Shown here one piece after another: positions 1,668 to 39,212 of a stretch of 45,246 nucleotides of DNA. The stretch is from a virus (taxonomy: Duplodnaviria; Heunggongvirae; Uroviricota; Caudoviricetes). Made by a program: the position numbers and the translations under genes. How positions within the stretch are numbered: position 1 is the first letter of the stretch; every line of letters begins with the position of its first letter. The notes below the pieces were generated by a model. That model was not told where the DNA came from. It searched no databases and was given only the letters and a program-made list of their open reading frames with translations. The DNA lies in the IMG/VR virus record IMGVR_UViG_2711768010_000017; one strand, 5' to 3'.

Positions 1668-2765
1668 ATGGCGTACTATAACATAGAGAAACGACTAAAA
1701 TCCGATGGCACACCACGCTATCGCTGTAATGTGATTATCAAAGAAAAAGGTGTTATCACTTACAGGGAAAGCAAAACATTCCCTAAACATGCTCATGCCA
1801 AAACATGGGGCGCACAGAAAGTGATGGAATTAGATCTATATGGCATTCCATCATCAAATGCTGTTGACGGACTTACAGTCCGTGACTTACTACACAAATA
1901 TTTAAATGACCCAAATGCCGGAGGTAAAGCAGGCCGTACTAAAAGATATGTGCTGGAACTGCTTATGGATAGTGACATCTCCGCGATCAAACTATCTGAA
2001 CTGACAGAAAATGACGTAATTGAACATTGCAGGCTAAGAAACAACGCTGGTGCAGGCCCAGCAACAGTCAGCCACGATGTTAGTTATCTTGGCAGTGTTC
2101 TGGATGCGGCAAAACCTGTATACGGAATCAATTACACATCAAACCCGGCGAAAAGCGCTCGTCCATATCTACTTAAACTCGGTTTGATTGGTAAATCAAA
2201 CCGTCGTAATCGTAGACCAGCATCTGATGAACTGAACATGCTCATTGAAGGCCTTCAACAACGATCTACTCATAAATGCTCAAAAATTCCGTTCGTTGAT
2301 ATCCTCAAATTTTCTGTGTGGTCCTGTATGCGAATCGGAGAAGTATGCCGGTTACGATGGGAAGATCTCGACCAGGAACAAAAATCTATACTAGTAAGAG
2401 ACAGGAAAGATCCACGTAAAAAGGAAGGCAACCATATGAAAGTTGCCTTGCTTGGGGAAGCCTGGGATATCGTCCAGCGACAACCCAAAAAATCAGAATT
2501 CATTTTTCCATATAACAGCACTTCTGTTACCGCAGGATTTCAGAGGGTAAGAAGCAAATTAGGTATTAAAGATCTGAGATACCATGATTTGCGTAGAGAA
2601 GGGGCAAGTCGCTTATTTGAGGCTGGTTTTAGTATTGAGGAAGTCGCTCAGGTTACAGGGCATCGTTCATTAAACGTGCTATGGCAGGTATATACCGAAC
2701 TGTATCCGAAATCTTTACATAATCGTTTTGAAGAACTCCAAAGGAGCAGAAATAAGACCTCTTGA
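1668..2765 (+). CDS. int: Tyrosine integrase of the dusA-targeting family
   Basis: 365-aa ORF with ATG preceded by GAGG RBS; C-terminal catalytic region HDLRREGASRLFEAGFSIEEVAQVTGHRSLNVLWQVY with R/H/R/Y-type signature; sits next to dusA 5-prime end. Confidence 0.85.
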   Translation: MAYYNIEKRLKSDGTPRYRCNVIIKEKGVITYRESKTFPKHAHAKTWGAQKVMELDLYGIPSSNAVDGLTVRDLLHKYLNDPNAGGKAGRTKRYVLELLMDSDISAIKLSELTENDVIEHCRLRNNAGAGPATVSHDVSYLGSVLDAAKPVYGINYTSNPAKSARPYLLKLGLIGKSNRRNRRPASDELNMLIEGLQQRSTHKCSKIPFVDILKFSVWSCMRIGEVCRLRWEDLDQEQKSILVRDRKDPRKKEGNHMKVALLGEAWDIVQRQPKKSEFIFPYNSTSVTAGFQRVRSKLGIKDLRYHDLRREGASRLFEAGFSIEEVAQVTGHRSLNVLWQVYTELYPKSLHNRFEELQRSRNKTS

Positions 2766-2767
2766 CA

Positions 2768-2783
2768 CTGTTTATCCATACAG
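2768..2783. promoter_or_regulatory. LexA (SOS) box 1: CTGT-N8-ACAG
   Basis: CTGTTTATCCATACAG directly after a TTGACA -35 hexamer (2762-2767), upstream of the dinI-like gene. Confidence 0.65.
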
Positions 2784-2795
2784 TTAAAAATAATA

Positions 2796-2811
2796 CTGTA
2801 TACAAATACAG
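2796..2811. promoter_or_regulatory. LexA (SOS) box 2: CTGT-N8-ACAG
   Basis: CTGTATACAAATACAG, 15 bp upstream of the dinI-like ATG at 2826; close to the E. coli LexA box consensus. Confidence 0.7.
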
Positions 2812-2825
2812 TGTAGGGGACTTTT

Positions 2826-3074
2826 ATGCGTATTGAAATCTGCATAGCCAAAGAAAAAATGACTAAAATGCCAACCGGTGCTGTGGATGCGTTAAAGGAA
2901 GAATTAACCCGACGCATCAGTAAACGTTATGACGATGTAGAAGTGATCGTAAAAGCCACCAGCAACGATGGCCTTTCTGTTACGCGCACCGCTGATAAAG
3001 ATTCAGCTAAAACTTTTGTTCAGGAGACTCTGAAAGATACCTGGGAGTCTGCTGACGAGTGGTTTGTTCATTAA
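2826..3074 (+). CDS. DinI-like SOS-response protein (prophage copy)
   Basis: 82-aa product [11 protein letters not shown]...[11 protein letters not shown] resembles E. coli DinI in length and conserved C-terminal TWESADxWF motif; preceded by tandem LexA boxes. Confidence 0.85.
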
Positions 3075-3105
3075 GTTCATCATCTCTGGACACCATTCAC
3101 TTGTA

Positions 3106-3135
3106 TTGACTTTAAGATCATTAAATTGTAATAAT
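3106..3135 (+). promoter_or_regulatory. Candidate sigma70 promoter for the membrane-protein/RT operon
   Basis: TTGACT (3106-3111), 18-bp spacer, AATAAT (3130-3135); predicted start near 3142. Confidence 0.35.
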
Positions 3136-3141
3136 TCAAAG

Positions 3142-3280
3142 GGATGGGGCAGGTTTTTCCTCTTGCGCATGCAAGGGCGGCTCTGATAATGAACAGTAAT
3201 ATTTTACTGTTGAGCTTATGCTCACTGATCCTGCCGGGCAGGATGTTCAACGGTTCCAATATATCCTGCCCCTTCCGCTT
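3142..3280 (+). ncRNA. Structured 5-prime leader or candidate RT-associated ncRNA (several stem-loops)
   Basis: GGGGCAGG (3145-3152) complementary to CCTGCCCC (3265-3272); local hairpins cttgc-gcat-gcaag (3162-3175), aacagtaa-tatt-ttactgtt (3192-3211), and perfect palindrome atcctgcc-g-ggcaggat (3228-3244). Confidence 0.25.
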
Positions 3281-3296
3281 TTAAAAAGGATCTTTT

Positions 3297-3848
3297 ATGC
3301 ATGACAATATTTGGTTTACATATAAAGCACGTATCCAAGCGCACCATCGACTAGAATGGCTTGAAAAACACTCTCAATTTATCCTCGTTTGGTATGCTAT
3401 ATTGAGTGCGGTACTTTCAATTGTAACGTTGCGATTTCCAAAGGTTCTAGGAGATAATACAGATGTCGTTGCGGCGATACTTTCAGTGGCTCTACTGGGT
3501 ATTTCTCTGATCGTATCTAACCTAGATTTTCGTGGTCGAGCAATAGCCATGAGAAGGAATTATATTGCACTACAGCGACTCTATTTTGACATTACCACCA
3601 GTCAACAGTTATCTCTTGAACAGAAAGAAAAATATTTTAATTTGCTCAATGAGGTTGAGAATCACCGTGACATAGATGATAAAATTTCAAGGGTAACTCA
3701 AGTTGGACTTAAGACGAGGATCCCCACACAAAAAGAAAAAATAATTGTTATTTTATGGATATTACTTCGAATATTTATTACTGCCGCACTTTATATACTC
3801 CCATTAATATATCTTTGGATTGACTATGACTGCAAGCAGAATTTTTAA
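3297..3848 (+). CDS. Membrane protein with three predicted TM helices; candidate effector partner of the downstream RT
   Basis: 183-aa ORF with AAGGA RBS; hydrophobic segments FILVWYAILSAVLSIVTL, VVAAILSVALLGISLIVSNL and C-terminal IIVILWILLRIFITAALYILPLIYLWI; AT-rich; overlaps RT start by 23 nt. Confidence 0.7.
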   Translation: MHDNIWFTYKARIQAHHRLEWLEKHSQFILVWYAILSAVLSIVTLRFPKVLGDNTDVVAAILSVALLGISLIVSNLDFRGRAIAMRRNYIALQRLYFDITTSQQLSLEQKEKYFNLLNEVENHRDIDDKISRVTQVGLKTRIPTQKEKIIVILWILLRIFITAALYILPLIYLWIDYDCKQNF

Positions 3849-9355: not shown

Positions 9356-10085
9356 TCAGAATTTATAACCGACACCCACGATGAAACCGTCAGTGCGCCA
9401 GTCGCCACTGCCGGAGCCTTCATAAGCAATATCAATGGCCACGGATTCGGTCGGGTTAAACTGCACGCCAGCTCCCCACGCCAGAGACGTGTTGCTGTGG
9501 CGACCGTCATCACTTCCGGTCAGCACATCGTGCGTTTTCCCCTTATTGTCAGTTACGCGGATATAATCCCCGGAAAAAGTCGACACACGGCTGTAAGCCA
9601 CACCCGCCATCGCATACGCGCTGAACCATTCATTCACGCGCACAGACGGCCCCGCCATCACGCTGAACCAGCGGTTACGAACGGAATCTTCATGCCAGCG
9701 GGTATCGCTGTAACGGGTCAGCTGGCGATTCTTGTCTCCTGCATAGCTGAATGACGTCACCANNNNNNNNNNNNNNNNNNNNNNNNNNNNNNNNNNNNNN
9801 NNNNNNNNNNNNNNNNNNNNNNNNNNNNNNNNNNNNNNNNNNNNNNNNNNNNNNNNNNNNNNNNNNNNNNNNNNNNNNNNNNNNNNNNNNNNNCCCCAGT
9901 GTGTCCGTAAACTCATAACGGTATTTCACGTTAATCCCGTTCAGATCATCACTGCCGGGAACGTTGGTCCGGGCATGAAGATACCCCGCGCTCAGCGTGG
10001 ACTGATGTTCAGACGCCCATGCAGGCGCACCGGATACGGCCAGACAAATGGCTGCGGACAAAATTGCTGCACAAACTTTACGCAT
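9356..10085 (-). CDS. lom: Lom/Ail/PagC-family outer membrane protein, interrupted by an assembly gap (N run 9763-9893)
   Basis: N-terminal signal peptide MRKVCAAILSAAICLAVSGAPAWA and C-terminal beta-barrel end GFIVGVGYKF; position between J and stf as in lambda. Confidence 0.7.
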
Positions 10086-30060: not shown

Positions 30061-30484
30061 TCAGTGACTTAAGGTTGTGATTCCGGAGGAGTCTTCAGAG
30101 AACCAGTAATTCTTCCTGGTAGCTTTCCTTTGTAGGTTATCCAAACATTCTGCGNNNNNNNNNNNNNNNNNNNNNNNNNNNNNNNNNNNNNNNNNNNNNN
30201 NNNNNNNNNNNNNNNNNNNNNNNNNNNNNNNNNNNNNNNNNNNNNNNNNNNNNNNNNNNNNNNNNNNNNNNNNNNNNNNNNNNNNNNNNNNNNNNNNNNN
30301 NNNNNNNNNNNNNNNNNNNNNNNNNNNNNNNNNNNNNNNNNNNNNNNNNNNNNNNNNNNNNNNNNNNNNNNNNNNNNNNNNNNNNNNNNNNNNNNNNNNN
30401 NNNNNNNNNNNNAAACCAGTACCCGGCACTACCTGCTGAGGTGCCATAGGCGACACCCGTTGTTAACTTATCCATGGATTTCAT
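30061..30484 (-). CDS. Holin, split by assembly gap (N run 30155-30412); dual-start MKSM motif
   Basis: [25 protein letters not shown]-terminus with GAGGTGG RBS; only the 24-codon N-terminal piece and a C-terminal piece are resolved. Confidence 0.5.
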
Positions 30485-35478: not shown

Positions 35479-35868
35479 TCAGGCGGCTGCACCCGCCGGT
35501 TTCTCATACTTACTGATAGTGATCTCGACCTTCCCTTTCTGGATAACCGGTCCCCACTCCACCAGCATTCTTTTCACCTGGCTGTCGTCTTCCCACACCC
35601 CCGCGTGGGTCAGGGCGTCAAACAGCGCCTTGTTATAGTTGTCCAGATCGCGGATCCGGTTATCCGGAGGAAACAACACGATCTCCACTGAAGCAGGTGC
35701 CGACGTTGGTTTTGGCAGACGACGTAACTGCTCAACTATTGCTGCGCACGCCGCGCTCTGAAATTTTCGCCCCGCCGCGCTTATCAGGCTCTTACCAGCA
35801 AATGCCCCTTTGTTGGGGTGTCGCCAGTACGTGTTCACGCTGGGCGGGAAAGGCAGGATCAGCTTCAT
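35479..35868 (-). CDS. rusA: Holliday junction resolvase RusA
   Basis: 129 aa with RusA-like motifs (PPSVNTYWRHPNKG, DLDNYNKALFDALTHAGVWEDDSQV). Confidence 0.85.
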   Translation of the reverse strand: MKLILPFPPSVNTYWRHPNKGAFAGKSLISAAGRKFQSAACAAIVEQLRRLPKPTSAPASVEIVLFPPDNRIRDLDNYNKALFDALTHAGVWEDDSQVKRMLVEWGPVIQKGKVEITISKYEKPAGAAA

Positions 35869-36191
35869 ACTTTCAGGCCTCTCTCATGTAACCAGTGGGT
35901 TGCACGCAGCCTGGCGTTTTCCTCACCGGCAAGCAGTGAGCGGATAATCCCGACCGCCTCGCTGTCGTCGTCCTTCACCGCGGTATGAAGAGTGATACCC
36001 CGGGCCATGCCACGCTTTATCGTGATGACGCCTTTTTTCTCCAGTGCGCGAAGATGTTCCACCGCTGCATTCACTGAACGGTATCCCAGCATGGTTGCCA
36101 CCTCCTGATTGGTTGGCGGGAAGCCACGTTCTTTCTGGTAAGAAATCAGCATATCCAGCACCTGCTGCTGGCATTGAGTTAACGTCGTCAT
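35865..36191 (-). CDS. LexA N-terminal DNA-binding-domain homolog lacking the S24 peptidase domain
   Basis: LTQCQQQVLDMLISYQKERGFPPTNQEVATMLGYRSVNAAVEHLRALEKKGVITIKRGMARGITL aligns by eye with E. coli LexA residues about 3-70; only 108 aa. Confidence 0.7.
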   Translation of the reverse strand: MTTLTQCQQQVLDMLISYQKERGFPPTNQEVATMLGYRSVNAAVEHLRALEKKGVITIKRGMARGITLHTAVKDDDSEAVGIIRSLLAGEENARLRATHWLHERGLKV

Positions 36192-36841
36192 GCCGCCATC
36201 TCCCTGACCAGTTTTTCCGCCTGCTGGCGAACCTGCGCCAGAAACGCCTCACCACATGCCTCAAGTTCATCGCGCCCGATGTAGCTGATTGCCGGTCCCT
36301 TCCAGGTCTTGTCGAAAACAGCAATAGCACCAGCGAAGAAAGCGCCTGTCGGCACCTGCTTCTCGTCCTTCGGGATAAACCAGGCAGGCAGTTCAAAACC
36401 AATACGCCCGCGAATAAAAGCAATATGATCTGCATCTTCCGGCCACCACACTTCGCTGGTGGCAGCTTTGATCAGGAAAACATAGCGTCCGCCCTTATCA
36501 CGCATGGCACTGGCATGTTTCATGATGTAACGCATGCCGGTGATGTATTGCCCTTCATGCTGACTGGCGCGGCTGTACGGGGGATTACCAAAGGCAGCAC
36601 CTTTAAGCTCCGCAAGACGTTCAGACCAGTCATGCGCCAGCGCGTTGTCTTCCGCAGTGTAATAAGCGGCACATTTGGCGTTATCACCATCAGTGAACAG
36701 ATCCAGAACAAACGGGCCAAACAGGGTGTTAATTCCCCAGAAAATGTTATCCGGCGTGCGCCACTGATCGCCCACTTCCTTCAGTTCATGGGCTGGTTTG
36801 TTCCGCAGCTCCACCAGCGCCTGGCAATATTTATTACTCAT
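36188..36841 (-). CDS. Phage Dam-like N6-adenine DNA methyltransferase
   Basis: FGNPPYS (NPPY) motif; first ATG at 36841 (track start 36874 is GTG). Confidence 0.75.
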   Translation of the reverse strand: MSNKYCQALVELRNKPAHELKEVGDQWRTPDNIFWGINTLFGPFVLDLFTDGDNAKCAAYYTAEDNALAHDWSERLAELKGAAFGNPPYSRASQHEGQYITGMRYIMKHASAMRDKGGRYVFLIKAATSEVWWPEDADHIAFIRGRIGFELPAWFIPKDEKQVPTGAFFAGAIAVFDKTWKGPAISYIGRDELEACGEAFLAQVRQQAEKLVREMAA

Positions 36842-37329
36842 TAAGCCCCCACGTAATTCCCTGACAGATACCACTCTTCACCCGATGCAGCGCGCTTGCT
36901 GCTTTTCCGTAAGCACCGCTCACGACGCGCCAGAAAATTGTTTCGTTCTGGCTGGGAGTGGCTTTCACGGAATGCCGCCATCCACACCGTTGCAGCACGA
37001 CGGTATAAGCCCCTGGACTCCAGTTCTTCCGCCTGGCGGGTCAGGCACAAAATCACCCGGGGATCGTTAGTGCCGACATAGAAATTGCGCACAGGTCTGG
37101 TTTCACGAACTGGTTGTGGTTCCGGCTCCTGCGCTCTCTCAGTCAGGCGTGGGAAATGTCTGCGTGTATCTCCTTCATAACGGTGAGCCACACGCCCACT
37201 CTGACGTAACTTGCTTGCTGACTGCAGAACGCGCTGCCGTGAGTAACCTGCAAAAGCATCCGCAATGTCTCCGGAAGTACACCCCGGATGGGCTTCAATG
37301 AATTTCTGAACTTCATTCAAAAGACTCAT
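36841..37329 (-). CDS. Hypothetical early protein (PerC-like by recollection)
   Basis: 162 aa from ATG at 37329; central LESRGLYRRAATVWMAAFRE segment. Confidence 0.35.
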   Translation of the reverse strand: MSLLNEVQKFIEAHPGCTSGDIADAFAGYSRQRVLQSASKLRQSGRVAHRYEGDTRRHFPRLTERAQEPEPQPVRETRPVRNFYVGTNDPRVILCLTRQAEELESRGLYRRAATVWMAAFRESHSQPERNNFLARRERCLRKSSKRAASGEEWYLSGNYVGA

Positions 37330-37331
37330 GA

Positions 37332-38150
37332 TCACCCCCTGAATCCTGCCGGGATCTGGCTGTAGTCCACGTTGTCGTAACTGGCTTTGAAGTACGGGTC
37401 CTCGCGTCTGGCTGCAGATACCGCAGGAACTTCCCAGAATTCTTCGAAATGACGATCCGGACCAAAGAACGTGACAGCCTGTTTCACAAATTGTGTGCCG
37501 CTGTTACCCATCGCAGATACCCATCCCGCGTAGCGTTTCACACCTTCCAGCATGGTTTCGGGGTTTACTCCCTCATTCAAACGGGCTTTCCAGGCTTTGA
37601 AGGCTGCAGATTTTGAATTGCCACCAGCACGTTTGGGATATGCCAGCCATGCCTGCTCAAACTCCGGAGAGTATTCCGGTCGGTTTGAACGAACTCGCAC
37701 GGACTCATCAACTGATGCACCAACAGCTATTGGTTCATTGACTGGTTCTTTGACTGGTTCAAAAGAGTGACTGGTTCTGGGTGAATCTCCTGCACTACCC
37801 CCTGGTGCAACTCCTGCACTACCTGGTGAATTTGCTGCACCAGATAGTGAATTATTTGCACTACCCCCTAGTGAATCTCCTGCACCATCCAGATGAAGGA
37901 GATAGATATTACTTGAGTTACCTTTTTCACCTTTCCGGGTGACTTTTTTTACCAGCCCGGACTCACAAAGGGCCGCAATATGATTCATCACAGAACGTTT
38001 GCTAATTTCGCACTGGTCAGCAATATGCTGGTAGCTGGGCCAGCACTCACCCTGATCGCTGGCATTATCAGCCAGCTTGATCAGAACCAGTTTTCGCAAT
38101 GGATTACCCACTCGAATTTTCATCGCTTTAACCATCAGCTCCATACTCAT
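37332..38150 (-). CDS. Replication initiator (lambda O-like: N-terminal winged-helix, repeat-encoded linker)
   Basis: N-terminal LRKLVLIKLADNASDQGECWPSYQHIADQCEISKRSVMNHIAALCESGLVKK; linker GGSANNSLSGAANSPGSAGVAPGGSAGDSP encoded by DNA direct repeats. Confidence 0.55.
   Translation of the reverse strand: MSMELMVKAMKIRVGNPLRKLVLIKLADNASDQGECWPSYQHIADQCEISKRSVMNHIAALCESGLVKKVTRKGEKGNSSNIYLLHLDGAGDSLGGSANNSLSGAANSPGSAGVAPGGSAGDSPRTSHSFEPVKEPVNEPIAVGASVDESVRVRSNRPEYSPEFEQAWLAYPKRAGGNSKSAAFKAWKARLNEGVNPETMLEGVKRYAGWVSAMGNSGTQFVKQAVTFFGPDRHFEEFWEVPAVSAARREDPYFKASYDNVDYSQIPAGFRG
37741..37890. repeat. Iteron-like direct repeats inside the replication gene (candidate origin)
   Basis: Repeated units such as gtgaatctcctgcactaccc and actggttc recur 3-4 times within about 150 bp. 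Confidence 0.4.
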
Positions 38151-38383
38151 GCTGCACCTCCGAGATGCTTCATGTTTTTTCCGGAGCGAAAGGCTATAAG
38201 CGGCATACTGACGCGGTAATTACGGCCCAGCGGTTCACAAATCACCTTCTGGCATTCACGGTCAACCAGGCTAACACGTAGAACATGCCCTGCAGGCGTG
38301 GTGTACCACTGCCCAACTGTAGGAATTGATATTTTTTTACGCTGAAGCAAACGGCAAATATTGAGGATCAACGGATTAAGCAT
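38147..38383 (-). CDS. Hypothetical protein
   Basis: 78-aa ORF with ATG start, tightly packed between flanking genes. Confidence 0.35.
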   Translation of the reverse strand: MLNPLILNICRLLQRKKISIPTVGQWYTTPAGHVLRVSLVDRECQKVICEPLGRNYRVSMPLIAFRSGKNMKHLGGAA

Positions 38384-39212
38384 GACGATGCCCTCCGCTG
38401 ATATTCAGGAGACGGTGAATATGAAAATTAGCCTTATCCGCCAGACGAATACGTTCAGCTTGCAAGTTAAGAAGGGTTTCTACCAGAACCTGATGTGCCT
38501 GCGGATCCGAAAGAGTTACCTTGCGCAGAGCACGTAGTGCAGTTGTTACATAACTGAGTTTATGTAAGTCTTCATCATTCAGACGAGTGAGGGCTGGGAC
38601 AGTAGCCATGATGGCAGCCTCCTTGATCGGTGAAATACTTCCACCACCGGAAACGCCAATTTCGCTGGTGGTGAACTGAACGGGGTTGGCGTAACCGGTG
38701 ATCAAGGAAACCGGCGCATCTTTCGATGCCCCCGCCCAGCCCACCATAACTTTGATGTGAGCAAATGCGGACGATAAAAAAGACGCTGGCGCGTCATATA
38801 TCGCCTTGATCAATTCCAGGACGCCAATCCCGGCACCCGCTTTATAAGGTGCCTGAACAGTGTAACGTCCCGGAATGGCAGAATCAATGTGCTGGTGGTC
38901 CTTCACACTCAACAAAATCACGCCTGAATTTCCACAAAGGACTAAAGCACTCATGCGGGTAGTCTTTGCGAAGATAGATAACGCGCTGTGTTTCTGGCTC
39001 CCAACGAATAACATGAACATAAAGTCCTCTTCCGTCACGAAACCAGCGGTTAAGTTCCTGCACAACTCGCCCCCCACAGTCAGGTAAAGTTCTCTGTGGT
39101 TACTTACAGCCAGGTGATTTGGTAATCTGCATTCATGCCGTAACAACAGGTGTTCAGCGACGCTGACCACCAGCTGTTGCGACAAACGGTTATTTGCCGT
39201 TAAACTGTTCAT
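38376..39212 (-). CDS. Hypothetical early-region protein, no recognisable motif
   Basis: 278-aa ORF with ATG start overlapping the neighbouring gene ends; no Walker A motif. Confidence 0.5.
   Translation of the reverse strand: MNSLTANNRLSQQLVVSVAEHLLLRHECRLPNHLAVSNHRELYLTVGGELCRNLTAGFVTEEDFMFMLFVGSQKHSALSIFAKTTRMSALVLCGNSGVILLSVKDHQHIDSAIPGRYTVQAPYKAGAGIGVLELIKAIYDAPASFLSSAFAHIKVMVGWAGASKDAPVSLITGYANPVQFTTSEIGVSGGGSISPIKEAAIMATVPALTRLNDEDLHKLSYVTTALRALRKVTLSDPQAHQVLVETLLNLQAERIRLADKANFHIHRLLNISGGHRHA

What the first reader, a model, noticed from the sequence alone, without database searches (positions are those of the whole stretch)
37741..37890. Iteron-like direct repeats within the O-like replication gene
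Three to four imperfect direct repeats (core ctcctgcactaccc / ggtgaat, plus repeated actggttc) lie in the linker-coding part of the gene whose N-terminus looks like a winged-helix initiator. This mirrors lambda ori iterons inside gene O and marks a probable replication origin.
Basis: partly seen in the sequence, partly recalled or inferred. Interest (0 to 1): 0.4.

Follow-up and report, generated by a model that had tools for sequence, protein, structure and literature searches.

The report
Probable phage replication origin inside initiator gene
Inside a prophage replication-initiator gene sit five evenly spaced palindromic DNA repeats followed by a 38-base stretch that is almost letter-for-letter identical in prophages of many bacterial genera, which together look like the phage's replication origin, a lambda-style arrangement in a different, untested protein family.

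Summary
The minus-strand gene 37332-38150 (272 aa) has a winged-helix N-domain, a disordered linker and a helical C-domain. It carries five copies, not three to four, of a 15-bp palindrome GTGMA-N5-TKCAC at 21-24 bp spacing (37781-37885). These are the only exact matches in the 45-kb window (0.35 expected). The 'actggttc' repeats are not iterons. They belong to a 38-nt element (37744-37781) directly after the last palindrome. Comparison with about 280 related loci shows a family-wide design: conserved N-domain, then 1-9 palindromes in a fixed register, then the 38-nt element, then interchangeable C-domains. The palindrome arms differ between lineages and track residues of the recognition helix. 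The same DNA unit occurs in other reading frames and in both orientations. In 80 species genomes chosen only by N-domain peptides, 98% of same-amino-acid codons in the 38-nt element are the identical codon, against 40% in the N-domain. The repeats are therefore DNA-level sites, most likely initiator-binding iterons next to an origin core. There is no lambda-like AT-rich tract, no homology to lambda O and no phage helicase loader. Nothing has been tested experimentally. Verdict: a new member of a known kind, of moderate interest.

The parts
37332..38150 (-). Replication initiator gene (272 aa). It is the homolog of SfV orf39 and mEp460 gp43 'replication protein', and of the HTH_36 protein of the Eru6 type in Stx phages.
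   Evidence: ORF. Pfam HTH_36, E 1.8e-11, 44.1 bits against a cut-off of 25. PHROG 270 'replication initiation protein', E 2.4e-88. 98-99% DNA identity to annotated phage genes. The Eru6 representative Stx2a_WGPS2 matches at 98.3% (PMC8951638).
37887..38150 (-). Coding region of the N-terminal winged-helix DNA-binding domain (aa 1-88). The recognition helix is around aa 50-64 (SKRSVMNHIAALCES) and the wing around aa 67-85.
   Evidence: AF2 model: pLDDT 82-94 for most of this range (71 for residues 71-80, 80 for 81-90), order H-H-H-H-E-E. Foldseek hits are only winged-helix proteins, including DnaD-N 2v79, 4pql and Orc1/Cdc6 2qby. Pfam HTH_36 covers aa 17-67.
37871..37885 (-). Iteron 1 (first in gene order, offset -107 from the junction): GTGCAGGAGATTCAC on the gene strand.
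37847..37861 (-). Iteron 2 (offset -83): GTGCAAATAATTCAC.
37826..37840 (-). Iteron 3 (offset -62): GTGCAGCAAATTCAC.
37805..37819 (-). Iteron 4 (offset -41): GTGCAGGAGTTGCAC, a perfect 5-N5-5 palindrome.
37781..37795 (-). Iteron 5 (offset -17): GTGCAGGAGATTCAC. It abuts the conserved element, and this position is invariant across the family.
37744..37781 (-). 38-nt near-invariant element CCCAGAACCAGTCACTCTTTTGAACCAGTCAAAGAACC on the gene strand, coding P-R-T-S-H-S-F-E-P-V-K-E-P. Proposed origin core (unwinding or helicase-loading site). It is also the mosaic joint between the N-domain/iteron module and the C-domain module.
   Evidence: It is the only stretch of the gene that matches Vibrio phages such as D67 and Stenotrophomonas phage BUCT709 in blastn. 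It is 33-37/38 identical in 67 of 80 (84%) species genomes chosen by N-domain peptides alone. Identical codon at same-amino-acid positions: 707/725 (0.98) here against 1595/4001 (0.40) in the N-domain. It is the least variable stretch among close relatives, with 11% variable sites.
37731..37743 (-). Continuation of the GAACCA(GTCA) repeats (…GTCAATGAACCA) beyond the conserved core. With the core this gives four GAACCA copies.
   Evidence: (period 12, 2.6 copies).
37332..37700 (-). Coding region of the C-terminal helical domain (about aa 151-272), an interchangeable module inferred to recruit the host replication machinery.
   Evidence: PHROG matches to 'replication protein', 'DnaD-like helicase loader' and 'primosomal protein' families over aa 135-272. 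The module is shared at 77-80% DNA identity with other initiators, for example phiP27 L17, which is followed there by DnaC-like and helicase genes. AF2 helices 162-225, pLDDT 59-79. No Pfam or PDB match.

Best explanation
The segment 37731-37885 is the replication origin of this lambdoid prophage, embedded in the linker-coding part of its own initiator gene. Shown: there are five 15-bp palindromes (extended consensus T-R-GTGMA-N5-TKCAC-Y-A), spaced 21-24 bp apart, about two helical turns. They are followed at a fixed 2-nt distance by a 38-nt element that is under DNA-level constraint across Gammaproteobacterial prophages. Inferred: dimers of the initiator's winged-helix N-domain bind each palindrome through the recognition helix, with one arm per monomer. 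The phased array assembles into an O-some-like nucleoprotein complex. This complex destabilises or presents the adjacent conserved element, whose repeated GAACCAGTCA motifs may be recognised as single strands. The C-terminal domain then brings in the host DnaB helicase and its loader and primase, because the phage operon encodes none. Rightward early transcription from the immunity region runs through the site. The N-domain plus iterons form one specificity module. The conserved element also serves as the homology at which this module is recombined onto different C-domains.
For: (1) The five exact palindromes are the only ones in the window, with 0.35 expected. (2) The design is family-wide. 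In 176 distinct linker DNAs, units start at -17, -41, -62, -83/-86 and -104/-107 from the junction. Spacings are 21 (195 cases), 22 (62), 23 (64), 24 (203) and 25 (5), and most arrays have 4-5 units. (3) Selection acts on DNA, not on the peptide. In 63 of 176 arrays at least one unit is in another reading frame, for example GTGCAGGAGATTCAC encoding VVQEIH instead of SAGDS. Units also occur in both orientations within one array. Across 495 class-A units the arms carry about 1.0-2.0 bits per position (8 of 10 positions at 1.87 or more, the two degenerate M/K positions at 1.0-1.2) against 0.4-1.0 bits in the centre. (4) Specificity co-varies with the protein: GTGMA with S(K/E)RSV(M/Q/I)NH, GTGAC with SKRS(V/A)MRH, GGKCA with RSTVKxH, TGCCR with SKSAVRxH, and TAGGC with DRSTVR(K/R)H. 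Recombinants P0066 and P0072 carry another N-domain with its own linker repeats on the window's C-domain. (5) For the 38-nt element, 98% of same-amino-acid codons are the identical codon, against 40% in the N-domain, in an unbiased 80-genome sample with locus G+C of 39-63%. Part of it is kept even where it is read in another frame (L242, L248). (6) The protein is a winged-helix initiator-type protein, placed where O sits in a lambdoid early-right operon. (7) Lambda's annotated iterons lie at the equivalent place in O, nt 349-433, spacing 20/24/23. Lambda-type O iterons have been shown to bind O and to be needed for replication (PMC7466680). (8) Unit number varies from 1 to 9 among near-identical proteins, as iteron arrays do.
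Against: There is no experiment for any member of this family. PMC8951638 states that nothing is known about the replication proteins of Eru-type phages. There is no lambda-like AT-rich tract. The conserved element is 45-47% G+C, and its 40-bp duplex stability of -51.8 kcal/mol is within 1 sd of the window mean of -55.4. The least stable flank lies on the other side of the array, at 37880-37939. The covariation is not corrected for shared ancestry. Among close relatives the arms are only modestly less variable than the centres and spacers (16% against 35% pooled; Fisher p 0.04). The element also encodes a conserved peptide, PRTSHSxEPVxEP, so part of its conservation is at the protein level. 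Variants with one or two units exist, and it is unknown whether they replicate. No small plasmid relying on this gene was found.
Confidence: 0.75

Rival explanations
1. The palindromes are genuine binding sites for the initiator's own N-domain, but they serve autoregulation or copy control (a roadblock to transcription through its own gene, or handcuffing). The origin proper would lie elsewhere in the prophage.
For: The binding-site signature does not say what binding achieves. No strongly AT-rich unwinding tract adjoins the array. In iteron plasmids the same sites are used for both initiation and control (established knowledge).
Against: No second cluster of sites exists anywhere in the 45-kb window, so an origin elsewhere would have no initiator sites. 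The fixed register to a DNA-constrained 38-nt element is unexplained by autoregulation alone. Lambda, P22 and L all place ori at this position.
Confidence: 0.1
2. The repeats are only a by-product of a low-complexity Gly/Ser/Ala/Pro flexible protein linker that grows and shrinks by replication slippage. They would have no function as DNA.
For: All five spacings in the window are multiples of three, and they encode a repeated peptide (GAGDSL / GGSANNSL / SGAANSP / GSAGVAP / GGSAGDSP). The linker is predicted to be disordered. Unit number varies from 1 to 9, as slippage predicts.
Against: Each unit is a palindrome, which a peptide repeat does not require. In 63 of 176 relatives a unit is kept in another frame with a different peptide, and units are inverted within arrays. 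The arms are conserved while the centre varies. Arm sequence tracks the recognition helix. Unit positions are fixed relative to the junction.
Confidence: 0.04
3. The 38-nt element is conserved mainly as a recombination linker (module boundary) that lets N-domain/iteron modules and C-domain modules be shuffled, or as a protein or RNA motif. It would not be an origin core. The iterons could still be the origin.
For: Mosaic joints fall exactly there. DNA similarity to other phages breaks at query positions 395-413. 88% of sites are variable immediately after it among otherwise close relatives. P0066 and P0072 are joined there. At least four unrelated C-domains follow it. It encodes a conserved peptide.
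Against: 98% identical synonymous codons across hosts with locus G+C of 39-63%, including the rare AGA codon, is purifying selection on the nucleotides. Occasional recombination alone does not explain that. Its distance to the last iteron is invariant. There is no RNA structure (z -0.57) and no Rfam family. The two roles are not exclusive: in lambdoid phages, from established knowledge, the conserved stretch to the right of the iterons is likewise where O-gene hybrids cross over.
Confidence: 0.2

Closest known systems
Phage lambda origin (ori-lambda) inside gene O, and the six-iteron origins of Stx phages 933W and P27
   Same: The origin lies in the middle of the initiator gene, just after the N-terminal DNA-binding domain. 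It has four to six tandem sites of about 18-19 bp with internal dyad symmetry at spacings of about 20-24 bp. Spacings are not always multiples of three, and sites are bound by initiator dimers. A further element lies directly downstream in the direction of transcription. The N-domain plus iterons are type-specific, and the C-domain contacts the helicase-loading machinery. Sources: for coordinates; PMC7466680.
   Different: There is no detectable sequence homology between the proteins: Pfam Phage_rep_O is not matched and hhalign gives probability 2.6%. The iteron sequence is different. The downstream element is not AT-rich; it is a 38-nt sequence-specific block. There is no P-like gene, since the next gene is PerC-like. 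There is no experimental evidence here.
Predicted origins in gene 18 of Salmonella phages P22 and L
   Same: These are O-position initiators, each carrying its own family of repeats inside its coding region, taken as the likely origin on sequence grounds (PMC8022706).
   Different: The initiator families and repeat types differ: four repeats of about 20 bp in P22, and six imprecise 11-bp repeats TGTCCAACGGA in L. Both are followed by a DnaB-type helicase gene, which is absent here.
HTH_36 proteins of Stx-phage replication-region types Eru5 and Eru6 (Stx2a_F403, Stx2a_WGPS2), SfV orf39 and mEp460 gp43
   Same: This is the same gene family. Stx2a_WGPS2 is 98.3% identical in DNA, and SfV and mEp460 are 98.7-99.0% identical. 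The Min27 'O' has the same N-domain and junction with class-B palindromes.
   Different: These records and papers annotate only a 'replication protein' or 'helix-turn-helix protein'. PMC8951638 states that nothing is known about the replication proteins of Eru phages, and neither Eru paper mentions iterons or an origin. I found no description of the palindromes or the 38-nt element in the searchable library. The SfV genome paper is not held.
RepA_N-type plasmid initiators of Gram-positive bacteria (for example pSK41 RepA; the Foldseek match 4pql is, from my memory, its N-domain) and DnaD
   Same: From established knowledge, not tested here: a winged-helix N-domain binds iterons that lie in the central part of its own gene, and a host-specific C-domain recruits replication proteins. 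The predicted N-domain here matches 4pql and the DnaD N-domain 2v79 among many winged-helix folds, and there is a weak Pfam DnaD_N hit.
   Different: There is no sequence-level membership. No RepA_N Pfam match was found, and DnaD_N scores 24.3 bits, below its cut-off of 27. The Foldseek E-values of 0.01-0.09 are generic winged-helix similarity. The hosts and elements are different.

Membership tests
Lambda-type origin (ori inside an O-like initiator gene) | Three or more tandem initiator-binding repeats of about 15-20 bp with internal dyad symmetry, spaced about two helical turns apart, in the middle of the initiator gene | tested here: met
   Five GTGMA-N5-TKCAC units at spacings 24/21/21/24, in codons 89-123. 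Lambda comparison.
Lambda-type origin (ori inside an O-like initiator gene) | A strongly AT-rich tract of about 40 bp directly after the last iteron | tested here: not met
   The 40-nt windows after the array are 42-45% G+C, with dG -51.8 against a window mean of -55.4 (sd 4.6). A sequence-conserved 38-nt element occupies that place instead.
Lambda-type origin (ori inside an O-like initiator gene) | The initiator belongs to the lambda O protein family (Pfam Phage_rep_O) | tested here: not met
   No Phage_rep_O hit at E<=0.01. hhalign of the N-domain alignment against lambda O gives probability 2.6%.
Lambda-type origin (ori inside an O-like initiator gene) | A P-like helicase loader or a DnaB/DnaC-type gene next to the initiator | tested here: not met
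   The downstream genes are PerC-like, Dam, a LexA-DNA-binding-domain protein, RusA, KilA-N, DUF968/HNH and Q. None is a helicase, loader or primase. Relatives do have them: BUCT709 a DnaB helicase, Min27 a large 'P'.
Lambda-type origin (ori inside an O-like initiator gene) | The initiator binds the repeats, and the fragment supports initiator-dependent replication | not testable with these tools
   This needs EMSA or footprinting and an ori-cloning assay.
Iteron-type origins in general | A cognate initiator with a winged-helix DNA-binding domain, encoded in cis | tested here: met
   Pfam HTH_36 at 44.1 bits against a cut-off of 25. AF2 N-domain pLDDT 82-94 for most of residues 1-88 (71 for residues 71-80), with winged-helix topology. 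Foldseek returns only winged-helix folds.
Iteron-type origins in general | Repeat sequence and initiator DNA-reading residues change together between lineages | tested here: met
   Five half-site classes each go with their own recognition-helix motif. A further GTGTA class goes with RKTAIGH. The result is not corrected for phylogeny.
Iteron-type origins in general | Repeats are constrained as DNA rather than as coding sequence | tested here: met
   Units in other reading frames in 63 of 176 arrays, and inverted units within arrays. The logo shows arms at about 1.0-2.0 bits per position (8 of 10 at 1.87 or more) and the centre at 0.4-1.0 bits.
Iteron-type origins in general | An adjacent DNA unwinding element | tested here: inconclusive
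   A DNA-constrained 38-nt element at a fixed 2-nt distance is a candidate, but it is not unusually easy to melt.
Pfam HTH_36 (PF13730) proteins | Score above the family's gathering threshold | tested here: met
   44.1 bits against 25, over aa 17-67. The precomputed Pfam assignment of nearly all database homologs is PF13730.
RepA_N / DnaD-type initiators | Sequence-profile match to RepA_N or DnaD_N above threshold | tested here: not met
   DnaD_N scores 24.3 bits, below its cut-off of 27, and there is no RepA_N hit. Only generic fold similarity to 2v79 and 4pql was found.

The most novel reading that the evidence does not exclude
The 38-nt block CCAGAAYCAGTMACTCTYYTGAAYCAGTCANNGAACC is a sequence-specific, portable origin core. 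It would be the unwinding or helicase-loading site, perhaps read as single-stranded GAACCAGTCA repeats by the invariant part of the initiator or by a host factor conserved in Gammaproteobacteria. It would be shared by thousands of prophage initiators whatever their iteron specificity, C-domain type or host (E. coli, Pseudomonas, Vibrio, Shewanella, Aeromonas, Stenotrophomonas). Together with the helix-to-half-site code (for example Asn to Arg switching GTGMA to GTGAC), this would make a whole family of phage origins predictable and re-programmable, including those of Stx phages of types Eru5 and Eru6.
Probability: 0.4. Interest if true: 0.6.

Novelty: new member of a known kind. Interest (0 to 1): 0.45.

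Why it matters
The principle of an origin made of iterons inside the initiator gene is textbook for lambda, so finding it here is expected rather than surprising. What is added is a concrete, testable origin map for a very common initiator family that has not been studied. The gene is present at 80% coverage or more in 897 of 5,426 complete E. coli genomes, and about 5,400 protein clusters are related to it. It is the replication protein of SfV, mEp460 and cdtI phages and of Stx-converting phages of the Eru6 type. [quoted passage not shown] The comparative data also give a simple recognition code (helix residues against half-site) and an unusually conserved 38-nt DNA element. Both can be checked with standard assays and used to annotate origins in prophages of many Gammaproteobacteria.

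Tried and rejected
(1) Lambda-like AT-rich unwinding tract next to the repeats: not present (composition profile; nearest-neighbour stability). (2) Promoter inside the element: no sigma-70-like site in 37300-38450 on either strand. One terminator-like hairpin, antisense to the gene at 37927-37942, is at chance level. (3) RNA explanation: no Rfam family (one sub-threshold miRNA hit, E 0.097). The fold of the repeat region is no better than shuffles (z -0.57). (4) Homology to lambda O: none. (5) Solved structures by sequence: none. (6) Identity of the C-domain: no Pfam hit even at E<=10. Only PHROG family names are available, and the AF2 model is of moderate confidence, so its partner remains inferred. 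(7) A small plasmid depending on this gene, which would have been near-proof of origin function: not found. Plasmid-database hits are mostly 25-140-kb records, the closest to the query being 33-45-kb phage-sized ones, plus a few chromosome-sized records. (8) Literature: two Eru papers, the Stx O-iteron paper, the phage L paper, an Sf101 paper and sequence-string searches gave no description of these repeats. The SfV genome paper could not be read, so prior mention there cannot be excluded. (9) The first related-loci run returned only relatives whose N-domain protein is 100% identical to the window's. That was useful for copy-number variation but not for diversity. Diversity came from a junction-pattern scan (biased toward the junction) and from the genome scan (unbiased), and only the latter was used for the conservation statistics. 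(10) My automatic unit-chaining failed for class E arrays (TAGGC type), whose last unit is not a 5-N5-5 palindrome. Those 29 single-unit rows undercount units.
Full report
THE OBSERVATION. Window 37741-37890 lies inside a minus-strand ORF, 37332-38150, of 272 codons. The repeat finder and TRF both report the repeats. There is a 39-nt family at 37781/37805/37847, a period-24 array of 4.6 copies at 37781-37885, and three copies of TGACTGGTTC(T) at 37739/37751/37768. Read in register, the repeat core is a 15-bp palindrome: GTGMA-N5-TKCAC on the + strand, or GTGCAGGAGATTCAC and variants on the gene strand. It has five exact copies, at 37781, 37805, 37826, 37847 and 37871, spaced 24, 21, 21 and 24 bp. 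These five are the only exact matches in the whole 45-kb window, where 0.35 are expected and no shuffle out of 100 reaches five. One-mismatch matches elsewhere are near chance: 9 outside the array, against 7.4 expected for the whole window.

THE GENE AND ITS SETTING. The protein matches Pfam HTH_36 above threshold (aa 17-67) and DnaD_N just below threshold. In PHROGs, aa 1-140 match 'replication initiation O-like' families. Aa 135-272 match 'replication protein', 'DnaD-like helicase loader' and 'primosomal protein' families. An AlphaFold2 model built on 29 homologs gives three regions:
- a confident winged-helix N-domain (residues 1-88, pLDDT 82-94 for most of it and 71 for residues 71-80, order H-H-H-H-E-E);
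- a disordered stretch at 91-157;
- a helical C-domain of moderate confidence.
Foldseek against the PDB returns only winged-helix proteins, among them the DnaD N-domain, 4pql and an Orc1/Cdc6 initiator.

The gene sits where O sits in a lambdoid early-right operon. In order, the genes are a cI-like S24 repressor (divergent), a cro-like gene, CII/CP76, an Ash-family protein, a 78-aa ORF, this gene, then PerC-like, Dam, a LexA-DNA-binding-domain protein, RusA, KilA-N, DUF968/HNH and Q. No helicase, loader or primase gene is present.

The gene is 98-99% identical in DNA to the annotated 'replication protein' of SfV (orf39), mEp460 (gp43), cdtI phage and several Stx2-converting phages. One of these is Stx2a_WGPS2, the type phage of replication region 'Eru6' (PMC8951638). 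That paper says nothing is known about the proteins that replicate Eru phages. Neither Eru paper mentions iterons or an origin. The gene is common: 897 of 5,426 complete E. coli genomes hold at least 80% of it, and 5,426 protein clusters are related at E<=1e-5.

WHAT RELATIVES SHOW. A blastn search showed the gene to be mosaic. Its C-domain part matches other 'O' genes, and its N-domain part matches yet others. One short stretch, window 37744-37784, matches Vibrio phages and a Stenotrophomonas phage at 90-97% identity, although nothing else in the gene does. Reading those genes gave the family design:
- a conserved N-domain (MSMxLMxKAMxIKxGNPxRKLVLIKLADNAxDxGECWPSY…);
- a linker with tandem repeats that differ from phage to phage;
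- a conserved junction PRTSHSxEPVxEP;
- unrelated C-domains after it.

At the DNA level every linker holds 3-6 tandem 5-N5-5 palindromes. The classes seen are GTGMA…TKCAC (the window and many others), GGGCA…TGCCC (Min27 'O'), GTGAC…GTCAC (Vibrio D67), TGCCR…YGGCA (Stenotrophomonas BUCT709 and others) and TAGGC…GCCTA.

I collected about 280 loci. Eighty are relatives whose N-domain protein is 100% identical to the window's. A further 120 are viral contigs found with the junction as a DNA pattern. The last 80 are species-representative genomes found only through N-domain peptide patterns.

DNA SITES, NOT A PEPTIDE REPEAT. Across 176 distinct linker DNAs the units start at fixed offsets from the junction: -17, -41, -62, -83/-86 and -104/-107. 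Spacings are 21 (195 cases), 22 (62), 23 (64), 24 (203) and 25 (5). In 63 of the 176 arrays at least one unit is in a different reading frame. For example, GTGCAGGAGATTCAC encodes S-A-G-D-S in the window but V-V-Q-E-I-H in Pseudomonas and Enterobacter prophages, where spacings of 23+22 replace 24+21. Within one array units also occur in both orientations: GTGAATCTCCTGCAC is the reverse complement of GTGCAGGAGATTCAC. A logo of 495 class-A units shows arms at about 1.0-2.0 bits per position (8 of 10 positions at 1.87 or more, the two degenerate M/K positions at 1.0-1.2), a centre at 0.4-1.0 bits and symmetric flanks (T-R … Y-A), so the site is about 19 bp long. A flexible Gly/Ser/Pro linker needs none of these properties, whereas binding sites for a dimeric protein show all of them.

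Among 34 distinct close relatives with five units, variable sites make up 16% of arm positions, 24% of centres and 43% of spacers. The arms-against-rest comparison gives Fisher p = 0.04, which is weak support.

THE SITES GO WITH THE N-DOMAIN. Half-site class tracks the recognition helix:
- GTGMA goes with S(K/E)RSV(M/Q/I)NH.
- GTGAC goes with SKRS(V/A)MRH.
- GGKCA goes with RSTVKxH and a distinct wing (ELNQSN).
- TGCCR goes with SKSAVRxH and wing GKGN(A/T)S.
- TAGGC goes with DRSTVR(K/R)H.
- A GTGTA class goes with RKTAIGH.

Database proteins P0066 and P0072 carry a class-B or class-D N-domain with its own linker repeats, fused at the junction to a C-domain identical to the window's. N-domain and repeats therefore travel as one module, as the N-terminal part of O and the iterons do in lambdoid phages. 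This covariation is not corrected for shared descent.

Unit number varies among near-identical proteins: 1 (242 aa), 2 (250 aa), 5 (272 aa), 8 (294 aa) and 9 (296 and 302 aa). Counts of 6 and 7 are seen in contigs.

THE SECOND REPEAT IS A DIFFERENT ELEMENT. It belongs to CCCAGAACCAGTCACTCTTTTGAACCAGTCAAAGAACC (window 37781 down to 37744), which starts with the last base of iteron 5. In the 80 genomes chosen only by N-domain peptides, the best match to these 38 nt is 33-37 identical in 67 loci (84%). The hosts include Pseudomonas, Aeromonas, Shewanella, Marinomonas, Vibrio, Xenorhabdus, Erwinia and Enterobacter, with locus G+C of 39-63%. The shuffled control gives a mean of 18.7 and a maximum of 22. 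Where the amino acid is the same as in the window, the codon is also the same in 707 of 725 cases (0.98) in this element, against 1,595 of 4,001 (0.40) in the N-domain. In a few Parashewanella loci the first half is kept while read in another frame, giving …HPEPVSFEPV…. The nucleotides themselves are therefore under constraint.

The element is not AT-rich, at 45-47% G+C. Its 40-bp duplex stability of -51.8 kcal/mol lies within one sd of the window mean of -55.4 (sd 4.6). It has no sigma-70-like promoter, no Rfam match and no unusual RNA fold. It is also exactly where mosaic joints fall.

HOW IT MOST LIKELY WORKS. Shown: a phased array of five palindromes sits in fixed register with a DNA-constrained 38-nt block, inside the gene of a winged-helix initiator whose reading residues co-vary with the palindrome arms. 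Inferred, by analogy with lambda: initiator dimers occupy the five sites. Spacing of about two helical turns puts them on one face of the DNA, and they build an O-some-like complex. The annotated lambda iterons lie at O nt 349-433 with spacing 20/24/23, and O binding and iteron requirement are shown in PMC7466680. The adjacent conserved block is then opened or handed to the helicase. Its repeated GAACCAGTCA motif suggests sequence-specific recognition, possibly as single-stranded DNA, as is known for the AT-rich region and O (PMC7466680) and for plasmid Rep proteins (established knowledge). The C-domain recruits host DnaB and its loader and primase, since the phage encodes none. Relatives with other C-domains bring their own DnaB, DnaC or large primase-like gene. 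I put 0.75 on 'this is the origin'. The specific role of the 38-nt block is less certain, at about 0.4 for origin core as its main role. Its role as a recombination joint is not exclusive of that.

COMPARISON WITH WHAT IS KNOWN. The design works like ori-lambda, but the locus is not a member of that family by sequence. There is no Phage_rep_O match, hhalign against lambda O gives probability 2.6%, there is no AT-rich tract, and there is no P gene. It also parallels the predicted origins in P22 and L gene 18 (PMC8022706). From my own knowledge, it parallels the RepA_N plasmid initiators too, whose iterons lie in the middle of repA. The fold similarity to 4pql (which I recall as the pSK41 RepA N-domain) and to DnaD-N is only generic winged-helix similarity.

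I found no published description of these palindromes or of the 38-nt element. The SfV genome paper could not be read.

VERDICT. It is an expected kind of feature in a family where it had not been mapped, hence 'new member of a known kind' with moderate interest. The part most worth following up is the 38-nt near-invariant element and the simple helix-to-half-site code.

Noticed in passing
window 37744-37781 (also L205-L284): A 38-nt stretch of coding DNA is 33-37/38 identical in prophages of Pseudomonas, Vibrio, Shewanella, Aeromonas, Marinomonas, Xenorhabdus and enterobacteria. 98% of same-amino-acid codons are the identical codon, including the rare AGA, against 40% in the neighbouring conserved N-domain.
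   Followed up: yes
L223, L243, L282 (genome-contig loci, gene starting at about 1501): In some genomes the initiator ORF shifts frame in the last iteron or the junction and ends as …HPEPVTLLNQ(S)*, leaving an N-domain-only protein of 118-133 aa. The window's own alternative frame (ORF 37727-37861, minus strand) reads the same peptide and stops at the same TAG. These could be pseudogenes, sequencing errors or truncated regulators.
   Followed up: no
proteins P0042, P0028, P0035, P0003, P0008, P0024, P0001; loci L055, L062, L097: Near-identical initiators differ only in the number of repeat units, from 1 to 9. The two-unit form is seen on 64 contigs. Whether one- and two-unit arrays are still functional origins is open.
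   Followed up: partly
window 36841-37335 (-) and 35479-37335: No helicase, helicase loader or primase follows the initiator. The next gene is a PerC-family regulator (the yfdN homolog), then Dam, a LexA-DNA-binding-domain protein and RusA. An O16:H48 strain and several other E. coli genomes match only the last 76 nt of the gene next to yfdN, so they appear to retain only a remnant of a related initiator there.
   Followed up: partly
L285 (phiP27, CDS L17 at 2393-3319 of the locus): The C-domain of the window's initiator is shared at about 78% DNA identity with an unannotated 308-aa phiP27 protein, which is followed by DnaC-like and helicase genes. The same C-domain module therefore occurs both with and without phage-encoded loader genes.
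   Followed up: no
proteins P0047, P0049-P0051, P0027, P0040: Some database proteins are fusions of this initiator's first 72-85% with RusA, Dam or PerC domains. This suggests deletions in decaying prophages that remove the C-domain and the intervening genes.
   Followed up: no
window 9763-9893, 15135, 30155-30412: There are runs of non-ACGT letters (masked or undetermined bases) in the window, inside the tail-fibre region and near a DNA methylase gene.
   Followed up: no
plasmid-database hits H92, H94, H95, H106-H115: Records of 28-104 kb (mostly 38-48 kb) filed as plasmids in E. coli, Salmonella, Klebsiella and, repeatedly, Arsenophonus nasoniae carry this initiator family. They look like phage genomes or phage-plasmids maintained extrachromosomally.
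   Followed up: no
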